A stretch of DNA of 64,000 nucleotides, from positions 1 to 64,000 of the IMG/VR virus record IMGVR_UViG_3300028045_000001, one strand, 5' to 3'. The stretch's first letter is position 1, and every line of letters starts with the position of its first letter. This stretch comes from a virus. The notes beneath the pieces were generated by a model that was not told where the DNA came from, ran no database searches, and was given only the letters and a program-made list of their open reading frames with translations. The position numbers and the translations under genes were made by a program. Below are positions 29,564 through 50,917 of the stretch, piece by piece.

Positions 29564-32437
29564 TCAACTGAATGCATTTAGGTCGCCAGTGCTAACGGTC
29601 TCAATGATTAAGTCTTCAACGTAGTGAATTGTGTTGTCTGTATTAAATGTTAATTTTCGTGCTACGATTGATTTCGTTTTGTCATTAACATTAATTAGGG
29701 TTTGAAGTTCCGGATCTCCATTGATACCATAATTGTCAATGCTTAAGATTTGATCACCTAAGGAAGATATGATCTCATCTTGGATAAGAGATATGGATAT
29801 GGTACCGGATTCGACATGTGCCCTTATAATATTTACCACGGATGATTTAAGACTATTTATCATTTCGATGTTATCTATTGTTTTAGTCGAGACGTATAGA
29901 ACTAGATGCATGGTCACGTTCAGCGGCTGATTAACGAACGTATTCTTTTTTGTAACGTAGTTACTATTTCCTATCGTACATATAGGTTCAAAGAACATGT
30001 AGGTTTTTTCAAGCAAGTCTTTCTGAACTCGACTAAGCTCCTCCAAATAATGTCCTATCATTTCAGAGAGATTGATTCCTATCATGGAGGGATCGGTCGA
30101 ATTATCGTACAGTAACCTATAATCTATATGGAGCATGTTGATGGCGTAAATACTTGTTCTTTCTTTCACAACTATGCCATTGCCCCGGTAATCCAAGACC
30201 ATATCTCCAGCAAGATGTGCTACGATCTTGTGCCCAAACTCATCAACGATATCATCGCCCTCTGAAAATAATTTATTTAATTCTACCGCGCCATCAAATA
30301 CAATAAATATGAGCTTACCTTCGTCGTCGTACTCATACACATCGGATGTATATTTTTTATATATTGTTTCTGGATATGTTTGGTACTTGATATCTGTATA
30401 ATTAATATCAACCGATGGATCTATAGTACTGTTCAATCTTTTTCCAAGAACTATAGTTAAATCCTGTCGTATAGTGGTAACAAACTCACTTGGGGACAGC
30501 GTACTTCCTAATATGTTGGAAGACCTTACTTCGAGACTGACCATGAGCGAAAACTTCATATCTATATAGCAGCCGTTAGAGTTCCCACCAGAGGTGCGGT
30601 TAAAGGAATTAATTAGTATGCGATGAAATTTATTTATGTCGTACTCAGTCGTGAGCACGAAGTCATAGTAGGTAACTTTTTCTACTTCGCTACTTTTTAC
30701 TGCATCTATATAAAACTCCTCACCTGAATTCGGGTCTGTCGTGTACCCCCGAATGCGGATATTGTCCTCAATAACATCCTTTAGATCATTGGACTTTAGG
30801 ACACCTATGCGTACTATAAACTTTTCTGTCTCTAGTAAATTATGTATGATGATGCCATTCATTATAGTTAGCTGAGTACTTATCTCCACGTTCTCAGATA
30901 CAAAGACAATTTCTTGTATAGCTGGGTTGGTTAATTCATATATGGATGCAACTGGAAATTCATCCTCTACAGAAAGTCTTATGTGGAATGGGGAAAAAGT
31001 ATATTGTGAGTCATTTAAAATAGACACCCGCTGTTCGATGGAGCGTGCATCAAAAGTAGCTCTCTCCATATCACATACTGGCTCAGCTATATTGCCGTTT
31101 AATTTATATAGTATGGCGGGTAATACTGTGACGGAATTGTCGCTGTTAGTTTTAATATGCGTACACGCTTCTATACTGAGTTCTGATATATTTGTGCGCA
31201 GATTCCCTGCTGGCAAATGAATCCCTTCTGCATCTTTAATAGGCGAATGCGCTATGAAATTACGTGCTGTCAAGTTATCTAACTGTTTGGTGACTGTAGT
31301 TTCTTTGTTAGTAAATAAATTTTTCATTCTTGGCAACGTTATAGCAGCTTCAGTTGTGAATGCATCGTTAATGACTTTGTCTCTGAGTTCTTCAAATGTC
31401 CAGCCATTAGAGCCACCTGAGATTCGATTCGTTGTAGGCAATACTTCTCTGACGGGTATCCTGTTTAATATTTCGGTGTAGGCAAGTGTCCCCTCTCCGA
31501 TGTCACCAAGCGTAAACGACAGGTCGCTGGGTTTTATATTACCTATGTTTATATCTAACTCTCCCTTTGTTTCATAGATCTCCACCTTTAAGTTAGTCCC
31601 AATAGTCCCATTAGAAAAATATATTTGTGGGATATTAATTGATATTGTATTCTCATCGAGATTTACTCTGAGCTTAGCGGTTGGAGTAAACGGATCATAC
31701 GACATGTCCGATAGTGTTTGTCCTATCGGGGACCACCGTTTATTTTTAAGATGTGTTATCACTACAGCATAGAACTTATTTTGTAACTCCCATTTGTTTG
31801 TGTAACCTTGTCCCTTAACAAGGGTCTCCGTATAAATGCGCCTGCGGAATTGATATACTGGAAACTCCATATCTATCATGGCCATATCGTGTAGATGCAT
31901 TTCGGTGTGTTTAATTGTATTATCTACAAGAGTTTTTAATGGGCTATCCATGGATGTATCATGTGATATTAAGAACGTATTTGTTAGCTTGTTGATCTTA
32001 ATTTCAATCGGGTAATATATACCGAAATCAATGCCGCCTATTGTGAACTTTGATGTGGACGGAATTATGATCTTATTGTAGTTGGAGTTGTAGGATACAG
32101 AGTGGTCTATTATGTATTTTTTATCTAAGAGCAGTCTTAGGTTAGTGGACGATGGCAAAGAGTACAACCCAACATAATCCCACTGCGACATATGCCGATA
32201 TAACTCCTTCGAAGTAGTTGCTCGTTTTGAATAACTATCGTTATTCATACGGATCATTTCTTGAGTAGCCCCACTAACCAAATTGCACATAGTCTCTAAC
32301 ATCCAGCAGGGGACGTTATTGCCATCGACTATTTTATTGCCACTCCCATGGCGTTCCTGTAGGTCCCGCAACGCTAAACTTTGAGTCAACATCGGATTTT
32401 TTAAAAGATGGTCCAAGTTATTAATTTTGTCTACCAT
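29564..32437 (-). CDS. hypothetical large protein (957 aa), probable structural
   Basis: GAGGT RBS. The longest ORF in the window. No catalytic motif seen. Confidence 0.65.
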   Translation of the reverse strand: MVDKINNLDHLLKNPMLTQSLALRDLQERHGSGNKIVDGNNVPCWMLETMCNLVSGATQEMIRMNNDSYSKRATTSKELYRHMSQWDYVGLYSLPSSTNLRLLLDKKYIIDHSVSYNSNYNKIIIPSTSKFTIGGIDFGIYYPIEIKINKLTNTFLISHDTSMDSPLKTLVDNTIKHTEMHLHDMAMIDMEFPVYQFRRRIYTETLVKGQGYTNKWELQNKFYAVVITHLKNKRWSPIGQTLSDMSYDPFTPTAKLRVNLDENTISINIPQIYFSNGTIGTNLKVEIYETKGELDINIGNIKPSDLSFTLGDIGEGTLAYTEILNRIPVREVLPTTNRISGGSNGWTFEELRDKVINDAFTTEAAITLPRMKNLFTNKETTVTKQLDNLTARNFIAHSPIKDAEGIHLPAGNLRTNISELSIEACTHIKTNSDNSVTVLPAILYKLNGNIAEPVCDMERATFDARSIEQRVSILNDSQYTFSPFHIRLSVEDEFPVASIYELTNPAIQEIVFVSENVEISTQLTIMNGIIIHNLLETEKFIVRIGVLKSNDLKDVIEDNIRIRGYTTDPNSGEEFYIDAVKSSEVEKVTYYDFVLTTEYDINKFHRILINSFNRTSGGNSNGCYIDMKFSLMVSLEVRSSNILGSTLSPSEFVTTIRQDLTIVLGKRLNSTIDPSVDINYTDIKYQTYPETIYKKYTSDVYEYDDEGKLIFIVFDGAVELNKLFSEGDDIVDEFGHKIVAHLAGDMVLDYRGNGIVVKERTSIYAINMLHIDYRLLYDNSTDPSMIGINLSEMIGHYLEELSRVQKDLLEKTYMFFEPICTIGNSNYVTKKNTFVNQPLNVTMHLVLYVSTKTIDNIEMINSLKSSVVNIIRAHVESGTISISLIQDEIISSLGDQILSIDNYGINGDPELQTLINVNDKTKSIVARKLTFNTDNTIHYVEDLIIETVSTGDLNAFS

Positions 32438-32457
32438 TTATTTTACCTCGTTGGTAT

Positions 32458-33453
32458 TCAGGGTGCATACTTAAATAGTAATTCGTATCCGTCGCCAATG
32501 TATTCTTTTTTCGCTCCTATATATGGTACTCCTGAATAGTTAGTATCTGTGGCATACCCATAGTTTGAGTATGACTCTATATTTGGATTAAACATCCTCA
32601 CCAGTCTATTGAAGTCCATCAGTATTCTATAATCGTTGTACTCTATTTTGTTAACTGAGCACGGTATACTGAACGACTTCGCAGCCTGGGAAATTACTTC
32701 ATTTGCCGCAACATTGAACTTTGCGCCCATTGGGACAGCGGTTAAGATGCATCCGGTCGCCTTTGCCCAACCAGTTATGTACCTACTGGTTGGATCCATA
32801 AGGAACCTGTAGATACTAAATGTATAACACATACGTTGCGCATCTATATCCTCATTATACATAACTATCTCGCCCTTCAATACAAGTCGCATAAATTCGT
32901 ACCAATAGTGAAACATGTTTAGCAGGGGAGAGTTTTGGACATCCATAAATTGCATAGTTATGTCATAGTTCTTCATAAGGTCATCTGCACCTGTCGCATA
33001 TATTTGATTCTCTCCATGATGCCCACCAGTAGTGGTAGCAGTGTTCATAACCATATCTGGGAATCCAGATATGCTCTGCAGTGCAGTACAGAGTGGCACC
33101 ATAAAAGGATTCTTATTCACTAACAACAGGCACTCAGACGAGTACCTACTTTGTGCACTAGCAAAACGTTTATCCAATAAGCATCTTATAGCAAACTGTA
33201 TGGAATTGACGTCCAGTGTGTTCAGTACTGACAGTATGGCGCTGTGCTTTATATTACTGGAGGTTAGATTCAACTGTGGCCTTGTTATAAAAGTAAGTCC
33301 GGTTAGTTCTGTGCCAGTGCTTACATTATTACATTTAAATCTGTCATGCTGTGTAAATAATTGCTGGATGGTGTTATACGCCCCACCTGTACCAGCGTTC
33401 CTACTCAGAAGTTCAATTTCTGATTTATATTGAGCTACATTGTCATTTGCCAT
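32458..33453 (-). CDS. hypothetical protein (331 aa), probable structural
   Basis: AGAGG RBS. First gene of the minus-strand operon, diverging from the gene at 33539. Confidence 0.6.
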   Translation of the reverse strand: MANDNVAQYKSEIELLSRNAGTGGAYNTIQQLFTQHDRFKCNNVSTGTELTGLTFITRPQLNLTSSNIKHSAILSVLNTLDVNSIQFAIRCLLDKRFASAQSRYSSECLLLVNKNPFMVPLCTALQSISGFPDMVMNTATTTGGHHGENQIYATGADDLMKNYDITMQFMDVQNSPLLNMFHYWYEFMRLVLKGEIVMYNEDIDAQRMCYTFSIYRFLMDPTSRYITGWAKATGCILTAVPMGAKFNVAANEVISQAAKSFSIPCSVNKIEYNDYRILMDFNRLVRMFNPNIESYSNYGYATDTNYSGVPYIGAKKEYIGDGYELLFKYAP

Positions 33454-35602: not shown

Positions 35603-35713
35603 ATGATAATAATATGAACTCTATTTGCACGTCGGATTATAAATAATTTTTTTTTAGCATGCTGGACTTTATCCGAGTCCGTTTATTTACACACCATCCT
35701 AGGAGGATAGACA

Positions 35714-36727: not shown

Positions 36728-36765
36728 TAATAAGTTCCCAAAGAAGATAGTGTGTGTGGTCCCAG

Positions 36766-36803
36766 CAACTCCTACGCAGCCATGCGTAGGAGTTGTATTT
36801 TTT
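36766..36803 (+). terminator. intrinsic terminator
   Basis: 13-bp stem CAACTCCTACGCA/TGCGTAGGAGTTG with a 4-nt loop, then TATTTTTT. Confidence 0.8.
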
Positions 36804-36810
36804 ATGATTG

Positions 36811-36823
36811 TCATTATATAAAA
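36811..36823 (+). promoter_or_regulatory. second promoter-like motif TCATTATATAAAA
   Basis: Lies exactly 41 nt upstream of the ATG at 36852. The same motif at the same spacing precedes the ATG at 39986. Confidence 0.35.
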
Positions 36824-36851
36824 ATTAACCTACTCTGGAGATGTATTAAAT

Positions 36852-37898: not shown

Positions 37899-37915
37899 TG
37901 GAGGATACTTAAGTT

Positions 37916-38800: not shown

Positions 38801-38821
38801 ATTACGAATTAAGGAGCTACG

Positions 38822-39868: not shown

Positions 39869-39893
39869 TGTGACCTTTGAAATAGTAAATTTT

Positions 39894-39924
39894 AAATAGT
39901 CGGTACTTAGAGTACCGACTATTT
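39894..39924 (+). terminator. intrinsic terminator
   Basis: 14-bp stem AAATAGTCGGTACT/AGTACCGACTATTT. Confidence 0.7.
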
Positions 39925-39944
39925 ATATAATAAAAAACATTTGA

Positions 39945-39957
39945 TCATTATATAAAT
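39945..39957 (+). promoter_or_regulatory. second promoter-like motif TCATTATATAAAT
   Basis: Lies exactly 41 nt upstream of the ATG at 39986. Confidence 0.35.
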
Positions 39958-39985
39958 TTACTAAAGTAATATAGGAGATGTATAA

Positions 39986-41023
39986 ATGGACGAAACTATG
40001 GATATGCAAATTAACAATCTGACTAAGCTATATACGGACCTCGATGATCTGGAAACTGCTCTATGTCTTGTTATTGATTTTAACGACACCATAAATGAAG
40101 TACAGGTTGACGCATCACTACTCTCATTCGTATCTAAGATAGGATTCAATGAGATACTCAAAGAAGAGATGGCTGATTGTCATCGTGAGAATTTCAGTGA
40201 CGCATCTGTTGCGAACTTAAAACTTGGCAGCGTAGGCAAGATCGGCGAGATAATCGATCGCGTTTGGAAATTCATAGAGAACTTAATTGAACGCATCAAA
40301 GAGCTTTGGGGCAAACTCACCGATCGTAATGGGACGGTCTTAAAAGAGGTTCGCGACATCAACGATCGGATAACGCTAATCTATAAAAAAATACAAGATA
40401 TGGATAAAAAGCTTCCAAGTTCTGATGAAGTGAACAATGAGCTCTCTTTTGTTAAAAAGGGAGTCTATGACCAATTGACCCTGCGTGCGAATATTAATTA
40501 TTTAATGGAGGGGTTAACTACGGCTAACTATCTAAATGCCCTGGATGTTAAAGATGCCCCGAACGAAGTGGTCGAACCATTTAAAACCATGAGGGGAGTT
40601 TTGGATCATCTCGGTATGAATATTGGAAAGGACCTCATTGTAAAAATACTAACTACTAACTCCAAAAGTAAAGGGGATTTAAAAACAAAGGGCTTTACTA
40701 TTGAAAAAGTCCTCAGAATATTGGAGGAGGGTCCTAAATTAAATACTGTCTGCAACAACGGCAAAGATGCTATAAAAGAAATAAAAGGGATCTTAAAGAA
40801 AGAAGAGCAGACAGCTAAGAAAAATCCAGCACTCTCTAAAAATAGAACTGAGAATGCAAAACAATGGGTTAGTGCGTATGTCAAATACTTTTCTCTGTTA
40901 GGAAAAGAGTGTTCCATCTGCGTTGATATGATGCTCGATATTGCGAAGGGAGCGGAGACTGCTTTGAAGCAAGCCACCGCTAAAAAAGAAAAAGAAAGGG
41001 CACACGAAAAGGGCCGTAAATAA
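39986..41023 (+). CDS. paralog family B protein, copy 2
   Basis: AGGAG RBS. See the entry for 36852. Confidence 0.6.
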   Translation: MDETMDMQINNLTKLYTDLDDLETALCLVIDFNDTINEVQVDASLLSFVSKIGFNEILKEEMADCHRENFSDASVANLKLGSVGKIGEIIDRVWKFIENLIERIKELWGKLTDRNGTVLKEVRDINDRITLIYKKIQDMDKKLPSSDEVNNELSFVKKGVYDQLTLRANINYLMEGLTTANYLNALDVKDAPNEVVEPFKTMRGVLDHLGMNIGKDLIVKILTTNSKSKGDLKTKGFTIEKVLRILEEGPKLNTVCNNGKDAIKEIKGILKKEEQTAKKNPALSKNRTENAKQWVSAYVKYFSLLGKECSICVDMMLDIAKGAETALKQATAKKEKERAHEKGRK

Positions 41024-41040: not shown

Positions 41041-41078
41041 ACATGACCGGATGGTGAGTACTCACCATCCGGTCATGT
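41041..41078 (+). terminator. hairpin terminator
   Basis: About 17-bp stem ACATGACCGGATGGTGAG/CTCACCATCCGGTCATGT. Confidence 0.65.
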
Positions 41079-41092
41079 ATAAGGAGTTAGAT

Positions 41093-42577
41093 ATGAAAGT
41101 TGATTTACATGGATTGGGGTATTATCCACTATCCCCTGGATCACAGGCATTGACCGATATATTCCAAGAGGGTATCGAATACGTTAAAAAATATCGGGGC
41201 ATGTCACCTGTGAAGAAAAAGGTGGCTGTCGCCAGGTATATAAGAAGGGGATTATTTCCTAAATTTAAAGCTGCTGTCTTAAAGTACTATGGGCTAAAAG
41301 TTAGACGCGTATATGTCCAAACCGACCCTGGCTTTGATGACCCAGTATACTTTGCAATGACGCCAACAGTCAAAACTACGAATACGGCCTGGGACATAAC
41401 CTCCGTGATCACTGGTTGGGGGTACGATGTCGATCCAGAAACTGCAGAAGAGTTCATACGATTAGCAGAAAGCATCAATCAGGATTCCCATAAGGTGAAC
41501 TATGAGCTAAAGGACGACAGCGTGCCATTGTATCTTGACATATGCATACCCAATGGGGCGTTCCTACTTCAAGAGCTCACTGCCAATAGTGTGGCCAATT
41601 TTACTGCTAAAGAGCTGACTGCAATCTACCTGCACGAAATAGCACATCAATTGATTTTAATTGAGCGATGCACCCATACAATTGCGCAATCTATGCTATT
41701 AGAAGAAAAAATGAATCACTTCAATCGCAATGCTGATTTGAAGGAGCGCATAAAATTAGCAAAGTACTTCTTAGCCAATGAGGACACCGCGACAATAGAT
41801 GATGTTGAGGCACTCCACGAAAGCACCATGTCACTGGTAGGCCTCGCTAAGGAAGTAAGCAATGTTGTGGATACATTTGTAGAGGTAGTTATCGTGTTAA
41901 TACTCAGATACTTTCCGATTATACTCGCGTTCAAGACATTAATGCGTTTTCTGATGGCTGTCTCTACGGTACAAATAAAAACCGAAGGTGGGAAACTAAG
42001 TGATAAGGCTCCGACCTACTTTGAAAATATGTCTGAGGAAATCAATGCCGATGAGTTTATATCTAAGAATGGAATGGGGTCCCATCAAATAAGTGCATTA
42101 TCCAAGTTGGAAGTAGCCTTCAAACTTGGGCTTGGCAGTCAGAGTGCTACAAACCCAGTGTCAAAATTACTTATGAGTATACCATACTATCTGTTGGCGG
42201 TAAGCGGGAGATTATCGGCTACTGGTTGGTTGGCTTCTCACGAGGAAGACTTTAATAGAATTATTCGACTAACCAGAAATTCATTTGCTGCGCTTAAGGA
42301 TGAGGGATTGCCTCATGGGTTAGTGAAGTATTCAATGGAAGAATGCGAACGAGCCATCCAAGAACAATATAAGTACGTAAAGAAACATTCGATTGCATAT
42401 AAGCTTAAGCTCATACATAACTTCATTAGGAAATATATGAGCCCCTTCAATCTTGTGACTATGATCGCCAACGGAAACTATATAAAGCAGTATAGTGAGT
42501 TGGAATCAAAGATAGAGGATTTGAACACCTCTAAGTTGTGGTACCAATCCACTAAGATCAAATCTTTTATAAAGTGA
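41093..42577 (+). CDS. putative HExxH zinc metallopeptidase with hydrophobic segments
   Basis: AAGGAG RBS before the ATG at 41093 (the tracked start at 41051 lies inside the hairpin). Has YLHEIAHQL (HExxH) plus two hydrophobic stretches, resembling M48/M56-like peptidases. Confidence 0.4.
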   Translation: MKVDLHGLGYYPLSPGSQALTDIFQEGIEYVKKYRGMSPVKKKVAVARYIRRGLFPKFKAAVLKYYGLKVRRVYVQTDPGFDDPVYFAMTPTVKTTNTAWDITSVITGWGYDVDPETAEEFIRLAESINQDSHKVNYELKDDSVPLYLDICIPNGAFLLQELTANSVANFTAKELTAIYLHEIAHQLILIERCTHTIAQSMLLEEKMNHFNRNADLKERIKLAKYFLANEDTATIDDVEALHESTMSLVGLAKEVSNVVDTFVEVVIVLILRYFPIILAFKTLMRFLMAVSTVQIKTEGGKLSDKAPTYFENMSEEINADEFISKNGMGSHQISALSKLEVAFKLGLGSQSATNPVSKLLMSIPYYLLAVSGRLSATGWLASHEEDFNRIIRLTRNSFAALKDEGLPHGLVKYSMEECERAIQEQYKYVKKHSIAYKLKLIHNFIRKYMSPFNLVTMIANGNYIKQYSELESKIEDLNTSKLWYQSTKIKSFIK

Positions 42578-42722
42578 TGGAGAGTGGTAGTTTGGAATAT
42601 AGAGAGCGGTGGGGTATAAATCAGAATGTCGATTTAATGCGTAGTTGTTCTAACTATTACACTACCCTTAGCTTGTTATTTGGTATAATCTTGGATCAGG
42701 TGCGTCATCAATCAACCCCGGC

Positions 42723-42753
42723 CTATAACGCTTCCATTTAGGAAGCGTTATAG
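42723..42753. terminator. bidirectional terminator between convergent genes
   Basis: 13-bp stem CTATAACGCTTCC/GGAAGCGTTATAG with a 5-nt loop. Confidence 0.7.
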
Positions 42754-42783
42754 ACTTTGATCGTTATGAGCAAACAGTTATAA

Positions 42784-43185
42784 TCACGGAGTATACTCGG
42801 AGGCCTGATATCCGGCAGCATCCAATATATTTAATATCTCTGCCTTAACCGATGGAGAGCTGACTGACCTAACGACTATGTGAAAATCCACCGACTCGTC
42901 TAAGACTGCGAATGTAGCCGCAGATACCCAATCCTTTGCAACTGCCATGAGTGTATTGTCCGGGAATCGGAGTATGAAATACTCATGATTTTTTGGATCC
43001 GGATTGATTGAGTTACCTTTCAATATCTGCAAATGATAATTGTCCACATCGTTATGGCACACGGAAGTGATGTCGTAATCTCCAAGTGCCACTATGGTCC
43101 CGACGTATGACTGCGTGTCAAATTGATTTGTCGTTGTAAAAGTGACTCTGCTTTTAATTGTGAGTTCGATACCATTTATAATCAT
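42784..43185 (-). CDS. hypothetical protein (133 aa) immediately downstream of the chaperonin
   Basis: AAGGAG RBS. YVGTIVALGDYD is faintly reminiscent of the GroES G.V.AVG.G strand. Speculative. Confidence 0.5.
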   Translation of the reverse strand: MIINGIELTIKSRVTFTTTNQFDTQSYVGTIVALGDYDITSVCHNDVDNYHLQILKGNSINPDPKNHEYFILRFPDNTLMAVAKDWVSAATFAVLDESVDFHIVVRSVSSPSVKAEILNILDAAGYQASEYTP

Positions 43186-43195
43186 GTGGTCTCCT

Positions 43196-45010
43196 TTAAG
43201 AGTCTAACGGTTCCTTTACCTTTAATCCACCAGTGACCACAATAGAACTTGTCTTAGCTAACTTCAAGCATATCTCCCTAAACCGTCTAAGGAGAGTTGT
43301 ATGAACTGCGGCGGGTTGGATGATCCAAGGTAACACATCGCCATCCTCTCCATACATGGGACTGTCGCCGATAATAGAAGTTATCCCAGTAAGGATATCT
43401 GTGGACATCTTTGGATAAAACGAACTCCCCACGCTATCTATATTGAGGTTGTCTTCGATGATGCGTATCCCTGCACGATATGCCGTACAAAAAGCATTGG
43501 ATACCTCCAGGTCTTCTGTCGGAGTGCCAGCCATCATATCGCCTTGTGGCGCAAGTGCCCGATGCAGTGAACTATATGCGCCTACCGTAAATCCATCTAC
43601 CAATGTTTTACGAGTGGCTCCGATAACATCTATCAATGTGTCAAGCATAGATATATTTTCAAAGCTTGTGCCACCCACCATGATAGATACATTCCGTGGG
43701 TAAACTAATCGATTGTACACTTTTAACACATCGTTTAGCTTTGTAATCTTATCCGGAGTTGTATCATCCTGTAGTCGCTCGATGACTCGTTCCAATTGAA
43801 CGATAGTGGCCATAAATTCTATTTTTGTTTCATCGCCATAATTTGGATGTGCCCCGCTCTCGGTTCTTGTGAAGATATTGTCAATTGAGACCTTGCCATC
43901 GTAGTACTTATAATGAACGCCCGGCATAGTTTCAATTTCTGACATTGGGGCCGTTGGAGTTTCGACGAGATTTCTAAGTACTAAGAGTTCATTAACCTCT
44001 TCTGGATGATGCGGTGGTGACTTGATGCACACTGCAATCCTGTCAAATAAATCCAATTGTGATACAGTCTCTACAACAGAGGCTCGAAACCCGCCACTCA
44101 TGCCTCCTACAATCACAACTAACTTTTCCTCGGGAGTTTCATTTACTCTTTTTACAGCTTCGAATATCTTTGCGGCACTTGTATCATTATCTGATATTTC
44201 TGTGTGATGGACCATGAGGGTACATACCTCATGTTCGAGTGCGGTCTGTAGTTCTCTATTATGCATGCGAGCGTCTATAACAACTGCATCCATAGTTTCA
44301 AACTGAGATTCTGATTGTACAACGTACCATGGTTCTGGCTTCTCTATGCGATGGCGATCGATGATTATTGTTTTAAAATTATTCTGTTGATTATTGACAA
44401 ATACCTCAGCAACGGCTTCTGAAAGGTCTCTGTCACCATGAGAACTTGTATACGCCTGGGAATAAGCTATGTGCCGTATAGCGTCGTCCCTATCGCATCC
44501 ATATTCCTCCACAATATCATCGATGGTCCATGTCTCATTTAGCTCTATATGGTCCTCAACAAGCTCAACGAATTTATTGTATCTTTGAACCAGTACCGAG
44601 TAGGGTGTATTTTGGATCGTATCCGATTCCATCATAACGACGATCGCTTTCAATGCTATTATCATTGATGATGTTGTACCATCGTAGGATAAGCGATCTA
44701 TTTTTTTACCTATGTGTGCTATGAGTTTTCGTACTGCTTCAGATACTGGGTTTATGTAATTTATAGAGCGAACAATATTTATTCCGTCGCACGTAAACAC
44801 CGAATCAGATGTCCGATCAGATGGGTTCAGTAAAAGCCCATATGCTGCCTGTGGGCCACTGTGCAATAACAGTTCTTTTATGATATCTTCAAATATTGGA
44901 ATAACTGTTTTCGCATAATCGTCCTTTCGTATTACGTTGTTTTCCAACTCCCTTGCATTTAGTATGGTCCTAGCCCCTGGGCGATGTGATCCATCTGCGT
45001 TACTGCTCAT
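43196..45010 (-). CDS. GroEL-like (Cpn60-family) chaperonin
   Basis: Collinear matches to GroEL landmarks: HSGPQAAYGLLLNP...TCDGINIVRSI (LGPKGRNVVL...TKDGVSVAREI), SYDGTTSSMIIA (GDGTTTATVLA), VGGTSFENISMLDTLIDVIGATRKTLVDGFTVG ([34 protein letters not shown]), IIQPAAVHTTLLR (ILDPTKVTRSALQ). Confidence 0.8.
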   Translation of the reverse strand: MSSNADGSHRPGARTILNARELENNVIRKDDYAKTVIPIFEDIIKELLLHSGPQAAYGLLLNPSDRTSDSVFTCDGINIVRSINYINPVSEAVRKLIAHIGKKIDRLSYDGTTSSMIIALKAIVVMMESDTIQNTPYSVLVQRYNKFVELVEDHIELNETWTIDDIVEEYGCDRDDAIRHIAYSQAYTSSHGDRDLSEAVAEVFVNNQQNNFKTIIIDRHRIEKPEPWYVVQSESQFETMDAVVIDARMHNRELQTALEHEVCTLMVHHTEISDNDTSAAKIFEAVKRVNETPEEKLVVIVGGMSGGFRASVVETVSQLDLFDRIAVCIKSPPHHPEEVNELLVLRNLVETPTAPMSEIETMPGVHYKYYDGKVSIDNIFTRTESGAHPNYGDETKIEFMATIVQLERVIERLQDDTTPDKITKLNDVLKVYNRLVYPRNVSIMVGGTSFENISMLDTLIDVIGATRKTLVDGFTVGAYSSLHRALAPQGDMMAGTPTEDLEVSNAFCTAYRAGIRIIEDNLNIDSVGSSFYPKMSTDILTGITSIIGDSPMYGEDGDVLPWIIQPAAVHTTLLRRFREICLKLAKTSSIVVTGGLKVKEPLDS

Positions 45011-45348
45011 TATGTTTCCCCTTTCCTTTCTTTTTTAAGGGCATCGATCTGGCTCTGCCTATCCCTTATTCTAAATTTAATCGTACGATATGTGTCGAGA
45101 TCGAGCCCCATCAGCTCCTTATATCCCATACCAAATTGCTCTATTGCCATACCGTTGCTTAATAAAAAATCCAGGACATCATCCTGGATAGATTTACTTA
45201 TTCCAAATAAAGTGTTCACTTGTTTTTTAGGCGTGTGCATTGCAGAATTGAATCTCGTTATATCTGGAGTAGGCTCAATAGCCGCATCGCTCATGACACG
45301 TACAGTATAGTATTTTTCAATGGATGATAAATTCTGCATTCTGTCCAC
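45010..45348 (-). CDS. hypothetical protein (112 aa)
   Basis: Its stop overlaps the chaperonin start by 1 nt, suggesting translational coupling. Confidence 0.55.
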   Translation of the reverse strand: MDRMQNLSSIEKYYTVRVMSDAAIEPTPDITRFNSAMHTPKKQVNTLFGISKSIQDDVLDFLLSNGMAIEQFGMGYKELMGLDLDTYRTIKFRIRDRQSQIDALKKERKGET

Positions 45349-45377: not shown

Positions 45378-46925
45378 TTACAATGTCTGCAACTGCATTA
45401 AGATTAAGATCTGGCGGACACCTATAAAAAAAAGTGTTTGTACGTCTCCTATTTGAAGATAGCTTTTATCCATGCTAAATTCTTTACAGATTGGGCATGG
45501 CTTAGGTCGATGCCCTATAAATGTAACTCGTCCAGTAGCGCTGTACTCAACTAATTTATCGTACATGTTCTGCGATTCTACTAACGTTACTCCAAGGGTA
45601 TCTCCAATGGCCTCATAGTCTTCTATTGTATTTACAACTGCCCCATCCTCATCGACGGTCCTTACATTTTTTATCCAAGGTCGGACCATCTTCGAGGTGT
45701 TGACTCTAACGAGTTCCTCTACCTTATATCGTGTGTTCGACTTTAATTTAGATACAATGTGCTTGACTATCTCTAATCCATAAACTATTCTATCGCTCAT
45801 TGTTGGTGGGGAAAAGGTCACTTGTAGACCTTCTTGTAGATCATACACTTTTTCTTTAAATATACGATCACGATATACTTTCAATTGCTCGGGTGTTCTT
45901 TCGGCCGACATGATATCTACTACATCGGATGCGTCTAACAAGTCGAGATTATCCAACCTCAACTTTGATATATCTAATAGAAATTTTTCTTCATGGGTAC
46001 AGTTTGAACCAACGCAGAGTTGTGTTATGTTAACTCCCTTTGGAAACATTAACGATACCGCTCCCCATAACAACGTGTCATAATCGCAATTGTGGATGTT
46101 AGATAAAAATGTATTGTAGTTCTCGTAACCAACTAAATTGCTATCGGCTATGGAGTTGTGCAATGCCTTCATTATAACACTCTCTACAACAACGCTGCCC
46201 ATTAAGAGAGAGTGTGCAGAATACATACGACCATATTCTTTCAGTTCCTCGTCTATGGCGGTGTAGGCATTGTGTAGATCTTCAAGGACCAGTGGCTTCT
46301 GCTGAACATAAAACCCACTGTTCAGTAGCATATTTTTTTTTACACCAGTAGTCTTACTAAGTATTGCTAACTTTGCCGCGTCGCCTTTCAGTGTGCCCGA
46401 ACCAGTTTTAAACTCGGTATGACTAGTTGCTACAAGTGGACCTTCTGTTGTTTGCTTGTAATTGTCGTTGGAGGCAAGTGCCTTTTGAAACATTAAGTTA
46501 TATAGCTCAGATCGCTGTGTCTGAGTATGTTGATAGTTCAAAAACTTATGAAGATAGCTGTCGGGGTCCTGTGTGAGTTCAGCCACTTCTTCGTCAGTGT
46601 ACTTCTCATACCGCTTATCTACACTGCGTCTTACAGAATTAAGATCCCCAACGAGTAAAGTCATTGTATCAGATAGATCGGATGCAGTTTTCTGCATCCC
46701 TTTAACTATTGATGAGAATGCATCAAAATCGTTTTTTAGTGTTCCATCACCTTTATCATTAGTGGCTGGCTGGTCCACAGGACCGGCTGTTCCCTGTACT
46801 ATTTCCGGAGCCTCATCCTTTGCAATCTCTTCAGACTCGCCCTCTTGTTCGATGGATCCCATCGACTCCAACACTTTGTCCAAGCTATTAGAGAACCCTT
46901 GTTTTACATTGTTGTCATCTTCCAT
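45378..46925 (-). CDS. hypothetical protein (515 aa)
   Basis: AGAGGA RBS. Acidic disordered N-terminus, and a CPICKEF motif near the C-terminus. Confidence 0.6.
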   Translation of the reverse strand: MEDDNNVKQGFSNSLDKVLESMGSIEQEGESEEIAKDEAPEIVQGTAGPVDQPATNDKGDGTLKNDFDAFSSIVKGMQKTASDLSDTMTLLVGDLNSVRRSVDKRYEKYTDEEVAELTQDPDSYLHKFLNYQHTQTQRSELYNLMFQKALASNDNYKQTTEGPLVATSHTEFKTGSGTLKGDAAKLAILSKTTGVKKNMLLNSGFYVQQKPLVLEDLHNAYTAIDEELKEYGRMYSAHSLLMGSVVVESVIMKALHNSIADSNLVGYENYNTFLSNIHNCDYDTLLWGAVSLMFPKGVNITQLCVGSNCTHEEKFLLDISKLRLDNLDLLDASDVVDIMSAERTPEQLKVYRDRIFKEKVYDLQEGLQVTFSPPTMSDRIVYGLEIVKHIVSKLKSNTRYKVEELVRVNTSKMVRPWIKNVRTVDEDGAVVNTIEDYEAIGDTLGVTLVESQNMYDKLVEYSATGRVTFIGHRPKPCPICKEFSMDKSYLQIGDVQTLFFIGVRQILILMQLQTL

Positions 46926-46937: not shown

Positions 46938-47747
46938 TTATTTAAATGGGAACCATCTCCTGTGATGCAGTGACACCACATTGAATTTATCAGTTAGTAC
47001 CTTCATACGTAATTGTATAGTCTTATTCGCTACTATTAACTCTGCTATTATCTGAGGTTCATCTTTAAACTTTTGTTTTTTAAGGTACTCCGTCACCGAT
47101 ATAGTAGTCTCGCCATCCCACAATGGAATCTTGATAGAGATAGATGTTTCTTTGTCTAAGGTTTCTATTTCCCCGTCTTTAAAATGGAGAAAAGAGGTCT
47201 CGCTTTTTTTAAATGCAGCACTATCTATTTTTTTTGCTACAATATGTCGACCATCCTGTGCTTCGATCTGATTATCAATTGAAAATTGAATGTGCTCACT
47301 TATAGCTCTCCCAATCTCTATGTCTCTTATTACAACATCTTTGGGATGTTCTTTAGGTGTGAGCACTTTAAATCCCTGCTTTGTATTAACAGTTCTAACA
47401 TCCTTAATGTAAAAAAGGTTGTTCTCAATCGATATCTTTATGTCTCTTATATCGGCATACTTATTAATGACTGTAGCTAACCGTTTAGACATAAGACATA
47501 TGTTATTTTTTTCGAAGGCTGGGAATACACTATAAAGGGCATTCATAAATTCAGGATCTTTGAACGACACCTTATGAATCGGGCGATGTTTTATAGTAGT
47601 ATCGTAGTGGATGATATCATTTTCTTCCATTGTTGTGTAGTAACATATTCCGTTCACTATATAAATATATTCATTTTGGCGTCTACATAATGAAAGGTAT
47701 TCTTTTATAATCTTTTTTTCATTAACTGTATCTTGTTTCTTTGCCAT
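46938..47747 (-). CDS. hypothetical protein (269 aa)
   Basis: AAGGGG RBS. No motif recognised. Confidence 0.6.
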   Translation of the reverse strand: MAKKQDTVNEKKIIKEYLSLCRRQNEYIYIVNGICYYTTMEENDIIHYDTTIKHRPIHKVSFKDPEFMNALYSVFPAFEKNNICLMSKRLATVINKYADIRDIKISIENNLFYIKDVRTVNTKQGFKVLTPKEHPKDVVIRDIEIGRAISEHIQFSIDNQIEAQDGRHIVAKKIDSAAFKKSETSFLHFKDGEIETLDKETSISIKIPLWDGETTISVTEYLKKQKFKDEPQIIAELIVANKTIQLRMKVLTDKFNVVSLHHRRWFPFK

Positions 47748-47765: not shown

Positions 47766-48119
47766 TTAATAAAGAAAGTTTTTCATTGGGGGGTCTGACT
47801 CATTATCCATTGCAAACCCGTTCGCATCTGCCATGAGCCGTGACATTGCGGTATTGGCAGGTGATGTTGGATTGAGTAGATCTGAGCCAGCTACTGATTG
47901 CTTTTGTGGGACGACGTGCTCCAATAGTTTCGTCATGCTTGCATGTGCTGCGCTCGCACGGCTGATCATTTTTTTTAAACCCGCAGTACTCTCCCTTTGT
48001 ATCTTCTTTGCATTCGCACGCTTGCGTTGCTCTGACTTCTTGGCTCGTTTTACTTTCTTTTTTTTTCTTCGATCTCTATTATTAGTACCCATATTTACCC
48101 CCACAATTGTCACGCTCAT
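47766..48119 (-). CDS. small highly basic protein
   Basis: ATGA overlap with the upstream gene. Contains RDRRKKKKVKRAKKSEQRKRANAKK, so it may bind nucleic acid. Confidence 0.5.
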   Translation of the reverse strand: MSVTIVGVNMGTNNRDRRKKKKVKRAKKSEQRKRANAKKIQRESTAGLKKMISRASAAHASMTKLLEHVVPQKQSVAGSDLLNPTSPANTAMSRLMADANGFAMDNESDPPMKNFLY

Positions 48120-48610
48120 TTAATGTTAATAAATTTGTCCTTTTCTGATATAGCGTATTCGACCATATTTCCAATAACTGTACGAAGCTGCTCTTCCTTA
48201 TCCTTTAGTGCAACTTGGGCGGCATGCACTTCCGAGAACGCTGTCGTAACATCGTCCTCGTCGCTCAGTTTAGTGAATAGCGAAGGCTCGTCGATAATCA
48301 AGTCAAGTACAGTGTTAACGCGCTTACTAATAAGGTTCGGGGCACTTGCGAGCTTGGCAATGTATGGATCAACTAATTTCTCTGCGCCGGCTACACATTT
48401 ACCAATAACGCTTGCATTTTTAGTGATGTCGAAAATTTGTTTTTTAATGGCTACTGCATCGGTGCCACCCTTCTTTAGGTTGAGGGCACGCTCCTTCAAT
48501 AGAGCTACATCACACATTGCCCCGAGTACATCCTTTGTTCGCTCTTCCAATGAAGCGAACTCTTCCTTTCCTATAGCAACGTTATTGGATAGCATCTTCT
48601 TAATGTCCAT
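48116..48610 (-). CDS. hypothetical protein (about 164 aa)
   Basis: AGGAG RBS before the internal Met (MDIKKMLSNN). The longer tracked N-terminus looks like read-through of the promoter region. Confidence 0.55.
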   Translation of the reverse strand: MDIKKMLSNNVAIGKEEFASLEERTKDVLGAMCDVALLKERALNLKKGGTDAVAIKKQIFDITKNASVIGKCVAGAEKLVDPYIAKLASAPNLISKRVNTVLDLIIDEPSLFTKLSDEDDVTTAFSEVHAAQVALKDKEEQLRTVIGNMVEYAISEKDKFINIK

Positions 48611-48715
48611 CTTTGGTATTCTCCTAATATAGTAGTGAATAATAAAATATAGCACCGTCAAATTATATGATGACAACAAACATATAAAATATATAAGGTA
48701 CTGGGGGTATATAAA

Positions 48716-50917
48716 ATGAATTGTGCTGCACGTGAATCAATGCTTGAAACGTATGTACTCAAGCAAGTTAACGGCTACTTGCTGGCCAATCCCGGGGCGG
48801 ACCGAGATAAAGTATCAAGTATAGTTCAAAATGAGGTTACGGCGAACTTCAAAGATAAGCACCTGGTGAATGTAATCATAGAAAAAGGGGAGTACGTTCT
48901 AAAAAAAGAAAAACTCTCGGAGATCGTCGAAACAACCAGAGATAAGGTTATTGCTCCAAGTGGTAGCATATATTTTACGCCAGATGTAAAAGAATCGGTC
49001 ACATCAAGAATGCTACGGACCAGGGTAAGTGAGCGCGATGCTGCGAAACTGGCTGGGTTCGTAGCTACGCAGCGGGGGGACCACGAGCTAGCGCTATCTA
49101 AACATTTTGAGCAGTCTAATAAAAAGGTTATGGTTAACTCTCTGCCAGGAGCGTTCAACGCCCCGCAAAATGTCCACTGCGACAGAGGGAACTATAACGC
49201 TATAACGTCAATCGGCCGCGCAATTATAAAATCCTGTTACACTGTTTGTGAACAACTACTTGGAGGCAACTTCCATTGGAAGGATGATGACGCTGTAGTT
49301 AACTACATAGAGACCCACCTATCCACGATGCCTCCTGAAAGTGAGGTCATGGATACAGTACATAGCCACAAGCTCAAAATACCAACTGTGGATGAGACAG
49401 TTAATTTTATTTTGACTATGGTTGACAAATACTCAATAACTCCATCCATACCCATATCAGAAAAAATAGTTAGATGTATGACCGAACCACAGCGAACATA
49501 CTTCTATTATGTCAATAATTTAAAACACCTGATAATCGAAAACGAAGTTATATTTAAACCAATGCTAAAAAAGTTCTTTGATATTAAAGATATTAAAGGG
49601 TCTCCCGGTACAGATCCAAACGAACTATTAGAGATGGATGAAAATCTATTAGTCATAATTTGCTCGAATGCCTACATGGACCTTAGGTATACTTCCAAGG
49701 ATGGGAGGGTAAAAAACCGAACGCTTCCCGAGTTTGTAAAAAATAACCCAGATGGAGCAAGACGATTCATAGCTATAGGGCGACACTTTGAATCAATTTT
49801 AAACCCATGTAAACTTCTAATGGATGTCCTTATTGACACCGATACCAGTATAGCAGATATTCAAACAAAACAAAATACTGTACGAAATACAATAATTGGA
49901 TCCGATACGGACAGTTGTATATTTTCATGTCATAAGTGGGTAGAGTGGTATACTGGTGAGCCGGTTAAAACAACTCCTGGGATGTATGAGATCGCATCAA
50001 TAGTCATATACTGGTTAGTTATGCTTATAAAACCAACCCTACATAAATTCAGTGTTGACCACGGAGTTACTGACTCCCAGGCCACTATTTTAAAGATGAA
50101 GAACGAATTCTTGCAACCTATATTTATGGGCTTCTCTATTAAAAAACAAGATGCCTCAATAGTCTCTATCATTGAAGGCAACGTACTGGTCGAACCGAAA
50201 ATTAATATGAAAGGGCTAGGTCTAAAATCCTCCACGTTTACAAAAAAGACTCTCGAACTCATAAATGTACTCGTTGTTAAAGATATATTGATGGGTGCTC
50301 AAGAGGGGCCGATATCTGGGAAGGCAATTATAAATAAATGCCTCAGGAGAGAAGTTGAAATTATTGATAGTTTGAAGAATGGCGAGATGGACTTTTTGAA
50401 ATCGCTATCTGCCAATCCTCCAAGTGAATATAAAAATCCTATGTCGAGTAACTATGCATATGTGCATTTTTGGAATGAGGTGTACGCTAAGAGCCATGGT
50501 AAAATAGAGGTTCCATCTAAACCTATAATGGTTACCTTGAGCGAACCTACGATCGGCTACATTGATTGGTTAAAAGAAAACTACCCTGTAGTGTATAATG
50601 ACATTGATAAGCTACTGGATTATATTTGGAGCGTCTATATAGAAACTGCAAGAAAAAAGAAACCAAATATTCCTGAACAAAAACTGCTACCTAAGAACAT
50701 CCTACAAAAATGGAAAAAGTGTCCAAGCAAATTAGCAATCAATGGGGAGTACAATAAAGTACCAAAATCAATTATCTCATTAATCGCAGTTAGAGATATA
50801 GTTTTTCAAAACATGAAACCCATATACGTCATATTAGAATCTTTAGGTATTGTAACCTACACAACTAATACAGATAAAAAACTCACGCTATTATCTGACC
50901 AGTACGAGCCATACTAA
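48716..50917 (+). CDS. family-B-like DNA polymerase, catalytic (palm/fingers/thumb) part
   Basis: KVMVNSLPGAF resembles motif B (K...NS.YG). IIGSDTDSCIF matches motif C (DTDS, codons 49904-49915). I saw no exonuclease motifs and no clear motif A, so the enzyme is probably split. Confidence 0.6.
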   Translation: MNCAARESMLETYVLKQVNGYLLANPGADRDKVSSIVQNEVTANFKDKHLVNVIIEKGEYVLKKEKLSEIVETTRDKVIAPSGSIYFTPDVKESVTSRMLRTRVSERDAAKLAGFVATQRGDHELALSKHFEQSNKKVMVNSLPGAFNAPQNVHCDRGNYNAITSIGRAIIKSCYTVCEQLLGGNFHWKDDDAVVNYIETHLSTMPPESEVMDTVHSHKLKIPTVDETVNFILTMVDKYSITPSIPISEKIVRCMTEPQRTYFYYVNNLKHLIIENEVIFKPMLKKFFDIKDIKGSPGTDPNELLEMDENLLVIICSNAYMDLRYTSKDGRVKNRTLPEFVKNNPDGARRFIAIGRHFESILNPCKLLMDVLIDTDTSIADIQTKQNTVRNTIIGSDTDSCIFSCHKWVEWYTGEPVKTTPGMYEIASIVIYWLVMLIKPTLHKFSVDHGVTDSQATILKMKNEFLQPIFMGFSIKKQDASIVSIIEGNVLVEPKINMKGLGLKSSTFTKKTLELINVLVVKDILMGAQEGPISGKAIINKCLRREVEIIDSLKNGEMDFLKSLSANPPSEYKNPMSSNYAYVHFWNEVYAKSHGKIEVPSKPIMVTLSEPTIGYIDWLKENYPVVYNDIDKLLDYIWSVYIETARKKKPNIPEQKLLPKNILQKWKKCPSKLAINGEYNKVPKSIISLIAVRDIVFQNMKPIYVILESLGIVTYTTNTDKKLTLLSDQYEPY

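What the first reader, a model, noticed from the sequence alone, without database searches (positions are those of the whole stretch)
42784..45348. Phage-encoded GroEL-like chaperonin in a translationally coupled operon, with a possible small partner gene
The 604-aa ORF aligns by eye with GroEL through the equatorial, ATP-site (DGTT) and C-terminal segments. It is highly divergent and longer than GroEL. Phage chaperonins are known from a few jumbo phages (EL-type) and are reported to act without a co-chaperonin.

Here the chaperonin gene overlaps the stop of a 112-aa ORF upstream. It is followed 10 nt downstream by a 133-aa ORF with its own AAGGAG. That ORF's YVGTIVALGDYD and later hydrophobic strands are faintly GroES-like. 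If either small protein is a dedicated co-factor or substrate adaptor, that would be new.
Basis: partly seen in the sequence, partly recalled or inferred. Interest (0 to 1): 0.65.

Follow-up and report, generated by a model that had tools for sequence, protein, structure and literature searches.

The report
Jumbo-phage chaperonin beside baseplate gene
The 604-aa gene is a real but very divergent phage GroEL-type chaperonin, and its two small neighbours are a baseplate structural protein and the partner of an upstream gene rather than GroES-like helpers, so this is a new member of a known kind with an unusually fixed gene arrangement.

Summary
Three minus-strand ORFs (112, 604 and 133 aa) sit at the stated coordinates, joined by a TAATG overlap and a 10-nt gap carrying AAGGAG.

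- **604-aa protein:** a genuine Cpn60/GroEL homologue. It matches phrog_5725 at 1.6e-21 and Pfam PF00118 just above cut-off. The AF2 model (pLDDT 83) has TM 0.65-0.79 to GroEL/Hsp60. The ATPase residues D52, D87-GTT, S151 and D398 are invariant in 21 relatives.
- **133-aa protein:** not GroES-like. It belongs to Pfam SH3DP and is homologous to phiKZ gp49 and Goslar gp243. Cryo-EM places both in the inner baseplate at 24 copies per virion.
- **112-aa protein:** no known fold. Similar small ORFs follow the gp077-family gene (p515) even in phages with no adjacent chaperonin, and no fusions to Cpn60 exist. It is therefore p515's partner rather than a co-chaperonin.

New here: in about 18 distinct uncultured jumbo-phage lineages (26 loci), the order p269-p515-p112-Cpn60-SH3DP is invariant. 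The junctions around the chaperonin have near-zero gaps, while the flanks vary by kilobases. The cassette lies between a baseplate block (gp087/gp088 homologues) and the divergent PolB. This suggests, but does not show, a role in virion or baseplate morphogenesis.

Verdict: new member of a known kind, moderate interest.

The parts
43196..45010 (-). Cpn60/GroEL-like phage chaperonin, 604 aa
   Evidence: Pfam PF00118 scores 36.1 bits against a cut-off of 34.3. phrog_5725 'chaperonin groEL' matches at 1.6e-21 over the full length. The PDB profile's best hit is EL gp146 at 1.4e-19. The AF2 model has pLDDT 83 and pTM 0.81, with Foldseek TM 0.65-0.79 to GroEL/Hsp60. ATP-site residues are invariant across the clade.
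42784..43185 (-). SH3DP-family protein, 133 aa; homologue of the inner-baseplate proteins phiKZ gp49 and Goslar gp243
   Evidence: PF20287 matches at 1.4e-8, 34.9 bits against a cut-off of 25. A clade profile built without phiKZ hits PDB 9xqs_M (PHIKZ049) at 8e-9 and 11lx_V (Goslar gp243) at 2e-8. Cryo-EM and mass-spectrometry placement comes from PMC13250141 and bioRxiv 10.64898/2026.04.21.720040.
45010..45348 (-). p112: small helical protein (109 aa from the ATG at 45339) with C-terminal motif FG(L/M)SxxDLMxLDxxTF followed by a charged helix; conserved partner of p515
   Evidence: Homologues sit immediately upstream of Cpn60 in 26 loci. The exhaustive library holds 82 stand-alone relatives and no fusions. 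The same motif occurs in the ORF after p515 homologues in Machias, RSL2, DT01, pEa54 and AgentSmith. The AF2 model has pLDDT 59 and is helical.
45378..46925 (-). p515: phiKZ gp077-family protein (phrog_4585) with four invariant cysteines; function unknown
   Evidence: phrog_4585 matches at 1.4e-26. The HMM hits phiKZ gp077 at 1.8e-32, AgentSmith gp11 and DT01 PA10_00171 at about 1e-47, and Machias gp197 at 1.5e-9. C303, C308, C476 and C479 are invariant.
46938..47747 (-). p269: clade-conserved first gene of the rigid cassette; no family hit
   Evidence: Found in 26 loci, always upstream of p515. No Pfam, PHROG or PDB hit.
47766..48679 (-). Two variable ORFs (117 aa at 48119..47766 and 187 aa at 48679..48116) at the 5' end of the same minus-strand gene string
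   Evidence: ORF list. p187 has a homologue only in L008 and p117 has none. No family hits.
42721..42755 (-). 15-bp perfect hairpin just after the SH3DP stop, between convergent genes; likely 3' end of the operon
   Evidence: RNA fold gives dG -27.9 kcal/mol and z -4.8, with 0 of 200 shuffles folding as well. There is no U-tract, so it was not called by the terminator scan.
48716..50917 (+). Divergent family-B DNA polymerase (divDNApol), divergently transcribed neighbour (context)
   Evidence: PF20286 matches at 4.2e-94. It is 24% identical to phiKZ gp050. It lies adjacent to the cassette in 22 of 22 loci that reach that far, on either strand.
41051..42577 (+). p508: HExxH metallopeptidase-like protein, phiKZ gp084 family, convergent neighbour (context)
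   Evidence: H195, E196 and H199 are invariant. The HMM hits phiKZ gp084 at 2.6e-14. There is a weak hit to the HExxH region of Ste24p.
29564..33453 (-). Homologues of phiKZ gp087 (baseplate wedge, 957 aa) and gp088 (tube initiator, 331 aa): the virion block flanking the cassette (context)
   Evidence: blastp gives 4.6e-80 to gp087 and 5.7e-23 to gp088. Their roles are taken from PMC13250141.

Best explanation
The window comes from a contig of about 240 kb belonging to an uncultured phiKZ-like ('group 1') jumbo phage. The 604-aa gene encodes a very divergent group-I-like chaperonin with an intact ATPase site. By analogy with the three characterised phage chaperonins (EL gp146, OBP gp246, AR9 gp228), it most likely forms a heptameric ring. 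It would bind and release non-native phage proteins in an ATP-dependent cycle without a GroES-type lid. It is co-transcribed and translationally coupled inside a conserved cassette: p269, p515 (phiKZ gp077 family), p112, Cpn60, SH3DP. The 133-aa product is a structural protein of the inner baseplate, in the family of phiKZ gp49 and Goslar gp243 (24 copies per virion). The 112-aa product is the conserved small partner of the gp077-family protein. Neither is a co-chaperonin. Shown here: the homology, fold and catalytic residues of the chaperonin, the identity of the 133-aa protein, the synteny and the coupling. Inferred: ring assembly, ATP-driven folding activity, independence from a co-chaperonin, and a role in virion or baseplate morphogenesis suggested by gene position.
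For: Chaperonin identity rests. The equivalents of GroEL D52, D87-G-T-T, S151, D398 and G32-P33 are invariant in 21 clade members that are only 23-55% identical to each other. All relatives sit on jumbo-size contigs of 100-360 kb. The window also encodes divDNApol and a split multisubunit RNAP beta fragment. SH3DP identity rests on PF20287 (16 of 19 members) and on non-circular profile hits to PHIKZ049 and Goslar gp243 in solved virion structures, with baseplate placement taken from the papers. Gene order is identical in 26 loci, about 18 non-redundant, with median gaps of -1 nt (p112 to Cpn60) and -1.5 nt (Cpn60 to SH3DP). The flanks vary by 0-4 kb and the polymerase flips strand. A baseplate wedge and tube-initiator block (gp087/gp088 homologues) lies about 10 kb downstream. 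In Staphylococcus phage Machias, the order p515 homologue, p112-like ORF, small ORF, GroEL recurs next to an annotated baseplate wedge gene. Published work reports that phage chaperonins act without a co-chaperonin (PMC9598537), and that HSP10 is absent from group 1 jumbo phages (PMC7824862).
Against: There is no biochemical evidence: oligomeric state, ATPase activity and clients are all inferred. The Pfam hit alone is borderline (36.1 against 34.3 bits, covering only residues 66-279). Some GroEL nucleotide-pocket positions differ: D495 is an invariant Gln and the GGG414-416 motif is degenerate. The cycle may therefore differ from GroEL's. Conserved synteny among related phages could partly reflect shared descent rather than functional coupling. 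phiKZ and Goslar assemble the same baseplate protein without any phage chaperonin. The only substrates shown for phage chaperonins in vitro are endolysins.
Confidence: 0.8

Rival explanations
1. Dedicated client model. The chaperonin is a morphogenetic factor specialised for baseplate assembly. Its translationally coupled downstream product (the gp49-family ring protein), and possibly the gp077-family/p112 pair, are its cognate clients or delivery factors.
For: The Cpn60-to-SH3DP gap is never more than 23 nt, and is commonly a 4-nt ATGA overlap, in 26 of 26 loci despite 23-37% protein identity. The cassette abuts the gp087/gp088 baseplate block. gp87 contacts gp49 in the phiKZ baseplate. In Machias the GroEL gene lies three genes from a baseplate wedge gene and follows a p515 homologue. 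The natural clients of phage chaperonins are unknown.
Against: phiKZ and Goslar build the 24-copy ring without a phage chaperonin. EL gp146 has neither SH3DP nor p515 nearby. Gene adjacency is not evidence of interaction. A 133-aa SH3-like domain is not an obvious obligate chaperonin client.
Confidence: 0.2
2. First reader's model. The 133-aa or 112-aa protein is a dedicated co-chaperonin (lid) or substrate adaptor of the phage chaperonin.
For: Strict co-occurrence and translational coupling of p112, Cpn60 and SH3DP. The AF2 model of the chaperonin fits GroES-bound conformers best (rmsd 4.4-5.7 against 14-15 A for apo), though this is weak evidence.
Against: The 133-aa protein has no Cpn10 similarity and belongs to a family solved as a baseplate component in two phages that lack a chaperonin. 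p112-like ORFs follow p515 homologues in phages with no adjacent chaperonin. Among 82 p112 representatives in 1.84 billion proteins, none is fused to Cpn60. Characterised phage chaperonins need no co-chaperonin.
Confidence: 0.07
3. Replication-module model. The cassette, including SH3DP and the Cpn60-like ATPase, serves the divergent PolB, for example as a polymerase accessory subunit plus an assembly or remodelling factor, as the Pfam name 'SH3 fold domain associated with phage DNA polymerases' implies.
For: divDNApol is adjacent to the cassette in 22 of 22 loci. SH3DP is directly upstream of the polymerase in phiKZ and Goslar. Iyer et al. 2021 proposed a polymerase-subunit role, a view repeated in PMC12571901.
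Against: Two independent cryo-EM structures and virion mass spectrometry place the SH3DP homologue in the baseplate. In this clade SH3DP is separated from the polymerase by 5-6 genes, and the polymerase's orientation and spacing vary. The polymerase-subunit idea was only a neighbourhood inference.
Confidence: 0.05

Closest known systems
Pseudomonas phage EL gp146 chaperonin (PDB 6TMT-6TMX)
   Same: It is the best sequence relative among solved structures (profile E 1.4e-19). Both are group-I-like three-domain proteins encoded by a phiKZ-like jumbo phage, both have the GDGTT and catalytic Asp motifs, and both lack a GGM tail. EL gp146 is reported to act without a co-chaperonin.
   Different: Identity is only about 19%. 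The window protein is 604 aa against 558 aa. D495 is replaced by Gln throughout the clade. EL gp146 has no SH3DP, p515 or p112 neighbours.
Bacillus phage AR9 gp228 and the Staphylococcus jumbo-phage (Machias) GroEL; OBP gp246
   Same: All are single-ring, co-chaperonin-independent phage chaperonins. AR9 GroEL is among the closest viral structure models. Machias shares the local order p515 homologue, p112-like ORF, then GroEL.
   Different: Identity is about 17%. In Machias the GroEL gene is followed by a terminator, not an SH3DP gene, and an extra small ORF intervenes.
phiKZ gp49 / Goslar gp243 (Pfam PF20287 SH3DP), inner-baseplate HR1 ring or 'lower wedge'
   Same: The 133-aa ORF is a full-length homologue of similar size (133 aa against 137-138 aa), with E 8e-9 and 2e-8 using a profile that excludes them. 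The family is a Chimalliviridae core gene, and phiKZ gp49 knock-down strongly reduces plaque formation.
   Different: In phiKZ and Goslar the gene lies directly upstream of the polymerase with no chaperonin nearby. Here it is translationally coupled to a chaperonin and sits 5.5 kb from the polymerase.
T4 gp31 / RB49 CocO (phage GroES-type co-chaperonins) with host GroEL
   Different: Neither small ORF has Cpn10 similarity. Here the phage supplies the Cpn60 subunit instead. HSP10 genes occur in other jumbo-phage groups, not in phiKZ-like ones.

Membership tests
Cpn60/TCP-1 chaperonins (PF00118), group-I-like phage chaperonins | Significant match to family profiles | tested here: met
   PF00118 scores 36.1 bits against a gathering cut-off of 34.3 (borderline). 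phrog_5725 matches at 1.6e-21 over residues 26-593. All 21 clade relatives carry PF00118. The clade profile hits EL gp146 at 1.4e-19, GroEL/Hsp60 at about 1e-12 and group II chaperonins at about 1e-7.
Cpn60/TCP-1 chaperonins (PF00118), group-I-like phage chaperonins | Three-domain equatorial-intermediate-apical fold | tested here: met
   The AF2 model has pLDDT 83 and pTM 0.81. Foldseek gives E about 1e-23 and TM 0.65-0.79 over about 590 columns to 4v4o, 6mrc, 4pj1 and 1aon. The closest BFVD models are viral HSP60/GroEL.
Cpn60/TCP-1 chaperonins (PF00118), group-I-like phage chaperonins | Nucleotide-binding GDGTT loop and catalytic aspartates (GroEL D52, D87, D398) | tested here: met
   D75, D110-G-T-T, S189, D461 and G52-P53 are invariant in 21 of 21 members. 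Exceptions are D495 replaced by an invariant Q565 and a degenerate GGG414-416 (the GroEL sequence was taken from memory and its numbering checked against the known motifs).
Cpn60/TCP-1 chaperonins (PF00118), group-I-like phage chaperonins | Heptameric ring assembly and ATP-dependent prevention of aggregation or refolding | not testable with these tools
   This needs purified protein, negative-stain or cryo-EM imaging, and ATPase and refolding assays.
GroES/Cpn10 co-chaperonins (for the 133-aa and 112-aa ORFs) | Cpn10 profile match, or a beta-barrel with a mobile loop | tested here: not met
   No Cpn10 hit at E<=1 for either ORF. None of 19 SH3DP members hits Cpn10. blastp of GroES against the 133-aa ORF gives no alignment at E<=100, and no window ORF matches GroES better than E 0.7. 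p112 is predicted to be all-helical.
SH3DP (PF20287) / phiKZ gp49 inner-baseplate protein family | Profile match above the curated cut-off and homology to the solved members | tested here: met
   PF20287 scores 34.9 bits against 25 and 16 of 19 clade members match. A profile without phiKZ hits gp049 at 1.2e-10, and hits 9xqs_M at 8e-9 and 11lx_V at 2e-8. 11lx_V is Goslar gp243.
SH3DP (PF20287) / phiKZ gp49 inner-baseplate protein family | Gene neighbourhood with the divergent PolB (PF20286) | tested here: inconclusive
   The polymerase is always within 5-9 kb, but 5-6 genes intervene and its strand varies. In phiKZ and Goslar the two genes are directly adjacent.
SH3DP (PF20287) / phiKZ gp49 inner-baseplate protein family | Incorporation into the virion baseplate (24 copies) | not testable with these tools
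   This is known only for phiKZ (PMC13250141) and Goslar (bioRxiv 10.64898/2026.04.21.720040). It would need virion mass spectrometry or cryo-EM of a phage from this clade.

The most novel reading that the evidence does not exclude
The chaperonin is hard-wired into tail/baseplate morphogenesis. The translationally coupled gp49-family baseplate ring protein, and/or the gp077-family/p112 pair, would be its cognate clients or delivery factors. That would give the first natural client set for a phage-encoded chaperonin and the first chaperonin embedded in a baseplate assembly operon.
Probability: 0.2. Interest if true: 0.6.

Novelty: new member of a known kind. Interest (0 to 1): 0.38.

Why it matters
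Phage-encoded chaperonins have been known since EL gp146. Their natural clients are still unknown, and only endolysins have been used as substrates in vitro. This uncultured clade fixes the chaperonin gene between a gp077-family/p112 pair and a 24-copy inner-baseplate protein, with near-zero intergenic gaps, across deep divergence. That gives concrete, testable client candidates. The analysis also shows that the Pfam label 'SH3 fold domain associated with phage DNA polymerases', and the 'polymerase interactor' description derived from it, conflict with two recent virion structures. It also links the uncharacterised phiKZ gp077 family to a conserved small partner protein.

Tried and rejected
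- **GenBank phage searches:** megablast of the locus and tblastn of the chaperonin and of p508 found no match. tblastn of the 133-aa ORF gave only noise.
- **PDB profile searches:** p515, p269 and p112 gave nothing usable.
- **p112 structure:** The second gave a low-confidence helical model (pLDDT 59), so I ran no fold search on it.
- **Literature on phiKZ gp077/gp084:** nothing relevant. Neither the jumbo-phage review nor the Goslar paper mentions chaperonins.
- **A mistake I corrected:** I first assigned the Goslar SH3DP homologue to 'gp192' (capsid vertex complex) by a numbering offset. The paper's Table S4 showed the protein is HOV27_gp243, inner baseplate.
- **'Baseplate hub assembly protein' labels on p515 homologues:** these come from weak automated similarity to T4 gp26. 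I did not use them as evidence.
- **p269 homologues:** none detected outside the clade.
- **Promoter and terminator scans:** sigma-70 promoter hits were no more frequent than in shuffled sequence, and terminator-like sites were fewer than in shuffles.
Full report
**1. Observation**

The ORF scan and the sequence confirm three consecutive minus-strand ORFs:
- 112 aa at 45348..45010. The database gene call starts at the ATG at 45339, giving 109 aa.
- 604 aa at 45010..43196.
- 133 aa at 43185..42784.

The chaperonin ATG overlaps the upstream TAA by one base (TAATG). The 133-aa ORF starts 10 nt after the chaperonin stop, behind AAGGAG. A perfect 15-bp hairpin at 42721-42755 (dG -27.9 kcal/mol, z -4.8) follows the last stop, between convergent genes. 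The three ORFs are the 3' end of a seven-ORF minus-strand string running from 48679 to 42784.

**2. The 604-aa protein is a chaperonin homologue**

- Pfam PF00118 is only just above its cut-off (36.1 against 34.3 bits, residues 66-279). PHROG 5725 'chaperonin groEL' matches the full length at 1.6e-21.
- The protein has no detectable relative in GenBank phages by tblastn at 1e-5. The large protein database holds 21 relatives at 23-55% identity, all carrying PF00118, on contigs up to 268 kb. The window's own contig is 239,960 bp.
- A profile of these relatives hits EL gp146 best (1.4e-19), then group I chaperonins (about 1e-12), then group II (about 1e-7).
- An AF2 model built on that alignment is confident (pLDDT 83, pTM 0.81). 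It superposes on GroEL/Hsp60 over about 590 columns with TM 0.65-0.79. The nearest viral models are HSP60/GroEL of uncultured myoviruses and AR9. The model resembles GroES-bound (extended) conformers, which I do not treat as evidence.
- In a MAFFT alignment with E. coli GroEL, the equivalents of D52, D87-G-T-T, S151, D398 and G32-P33 are invariant in all 21 members. D495 is an invariant Gln and GGG414-416 is degenerate. The GroEL sequence came from memory, with its numbering checked against D52, D87, D398, D495, LGPKG and GGG.
- Identity is 15.7% to GroEL and 18.7% to EL gp146. The extra length is a 17-aa N-terminal extension plus many small insertions. The GGM tail is absent.
- I conclude that this is a divergent, probably catalytically active, group-I-like phage chaperonin. 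Ring formation and activity are inferred.

**3. The 133-aa protein is a baseplate protein, not GroES**

- It matches Pfam PF20287 'SH3DP' (1.4e-8) and phrog_3235. It does not match Cpn10. Sixteen of 19 clade orthologues hit PF20287 and none hits Cpn10. GroES does not align to it at all.
- My first PDB hit to PHIKZ049 was circular, because the alignment contained phiKZ gp049. A profile without phiKZ still finds gp049 at 1.2e-10. It also finds PDB 9xqs chain M (PHIKZ049) at 8e-9 and 11lx/36za chain V at 2e-8, both over the full length. 11lx_V is Goslar YP_009820876.1, that is HOV27_gp243.
- PMC13250141 describes phiKZ gp49 as twelve dimers forming hexagonal ring HR1 of the inner baseplate periphery, contacting wedge gp87 and horn gp161.
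- The Goslar preprint puts gp243 in the 'lower wedge' of the inner baseplate. Its Table S4 lists 24 copies, detected by virion mass spectrometry.
- Iyer et al. 2021 had inferred a polymerase-subunit role from gene neighbourhood, and a 2025 paper repeats this. The structures argue otherwise.
- phiKZ gp049 is a Chimalliviridae core gene, and knocking it down strongly reduces plaque formation.

**4. The 112-aa protein**

- Iterated HMM searches find an orthologue immediately upstream of the chaperonin in all 26 loci. Sequence conservation is low (mean 22%). There is a C-terminal motif, FG(L/M)SxxDLMxLDxxTF, followed by a charged helix.
- It has no Pfam, PHROG or PDB relative. The AF2 model is helical but of low confidence.
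- An exhaustive profile search of 1.84 billion representatives finds 82 clusters. All are stand-alone proteins of 59-181 aa apart from one repetitive artefact, and none is fused to Cpn60.
- p515 homologues in cultured phages that lack an adjacent chaperonin are also followed by a small ORF bearing the same motif. Examples are RSL2 gp188 IFGLSFDELIRYPRRDF, pEa54_304 RFGLDLIQFMHLPREF, DT01_172 YTGINFQDFMKLPRDR and AgentSmith gp12.
- Among 462 small ORFs from cultured-phage loci, the three best p112-HMM scores are all 'the ORF right after p515': Machias gp196, RSL2 gp188 and DT01_172. The individual E-values are weak (0.006-0.014), but the positional coincidence is very unlikely by chance (about 3e-6).
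- p112 therefore belongs with p515 and predates the chaperonin's presence at this position.

**5. The conserved cassette**

- Context look-ups and 24 IMG/VR loci show the order p269, p515, p112, Cpn60, SH3DP in every full locus. There are 26 loci, about 18 non-redundant.
- Median gaps are -1 nt for p112 to Cpn60 and -1.5 nt for Cpn60 to SH3DP. The second is never more than 23 nt and is often a 4-nt overlap.
- The flanks vary. The gap from polymerase to p269 is 0-4 kb with the polymerase on either strand. The gap from SH3DP to p508 is 50-2080 nt.
- p515 is the phiKZ gp077 family (1.8e-32) with four invariant cysteines. Its function is unknown. gp077 carries no 'structural' note in the phiKZ record. 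The 'baseplate hub assembly' labels on some homologues are weak automated calls.
- p508 is the phiKZ gp084 family, annotated as a head protein, with an invariant HExxH.
- On the other side of p508, the window encodes homologues of gp087 (wedge, 4.6e-80), gp088 (tube initiator) and gp089.
- The chaperonin cassette therefore lies between a virion/baseplate block and the divergent PolB (PF20286, 4.2e-94).
- The linkage is clade-specific. EL gp146 has none of these neighbours. Machias shares only the p515, p112-like, GroEL part. phiKZ and Goslar have SH3DP next to the polymerase and no chaperonin at that locus.

**6. Interpretation**

- The best-supported reading is a co-chaperonin-independent phage chaperonin, as reported for EL, OBP and AR9. 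It is expressed together with morphogenesis genes.
- The invariant, gap-free coupling to a baseplate structural gene makes a baseplate or virion assembly role plausible. The gp49-family protein is a concrete client candidate (probability about 0.2), but nothing here demonstrates interaction.
- The co-chaperonin idea for either small ORF is not supported (about 0.07). A replication-module role is unlikely given the structures (about 0.05).

**7. Novelty**

Phage chaperonins in phiKZ-like jumbo phages are known, so this is a new, very divergent member of a known kind. The new elements are three. The first is the rigid cassette. The second is the pairing of p112 with the gp077 family. The third is the relocation of the gp49-family baseplate gene from the polymerase to the chaperonin. 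Interest is moderate.

Noticed in passing
window 33539-41023 (+): Seven tandem ORFs of 294-352 aa. The first is a phiKZ gp089 homologue (E 2.5e-25; phrog_3239). Only some pairs are still detectably paralogous (337/348b at 29% identity, 345/348a at 30%), which suggests an old tandem expansion of a virion-associated family.
   Followed up: partly
window 41051-42577 (+): p508 has an invariant HExxH plus downstream invariant acidic residues across 16 orthologues. It is homologous to phiKZ gp084, which is annotated as a structural head protein. This could be an unrecognised virion-associated metallopeptidase.
   Followed up: partly
window 45378-46925 (-): p515 (phiKZ gp077 family, phrog_4585) has two invariant Cys pairs (C303/C308 and C476/C479), which suggests a zinc site, and a variable acidic N-terminus. 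It is widely conserved in phiKZ-like phages and always followed by a p112-like small ORF. Its function is unknown.
   Followed up: partly
L028:9905-12104: In one related viral contig (IMGVR_UViG_3300005282_000007) the chaperonin is split into two overlapping ORFs of 334 and 412 aa. This could be a frameshift, an assembly error or a pseudogene.
   Followed up: no
window 8250-10379 (+): A 709-aa protein made largely of DUF285 (BspA-type leucine-rich) repeats (PF03382, 482 bits, four stretches). It may be a host-adhesion or tail-fibre protein and hints at a Firmicutes, Mycoplasma or Bacteroidetes-type host.
   Followed up: no
window 20181-21470 (+): A 429-aa ORF with multiple repeated matches to segments of very large PHROG families (phrog_17273, 22899, 3649), so it is a repeat-domain protein.
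   Followed up: no
window 58855-60078 (+) and 292-2286 (+): A split multisubunit RNA polymerase beta fragment (phrog_2962, 3e-87) and an SNF2-family helicase. Both are consistent with a phiKZ-like group 1 jumbo phage. No tRNA genes were found in the window.
   Followed up: partly
window 25362-26045 and 26903-27736 (+): Two paralogous ORFs of 227 and 277 aa (29% identity over 267 aa, E 3e-32) of unknown function.
   Followed up: no
window 12001-14000: A local GC dip to 0.30 against a window average of about 0.39, with high GC skew. This may be a recently acquired segment.
   Followed up: no
literature / Pfam PF20287: The Pfam name 'SH3 fold domain associated with phage DNA polymerases', and the 2025 description of phiKZ gp049 as a 'polymerase interactor', conflict with the 2026 phiKZ and Goslar virion structures. 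Those structures place the protein in the inner baseplate at 24 copies.
   Followed up: yes
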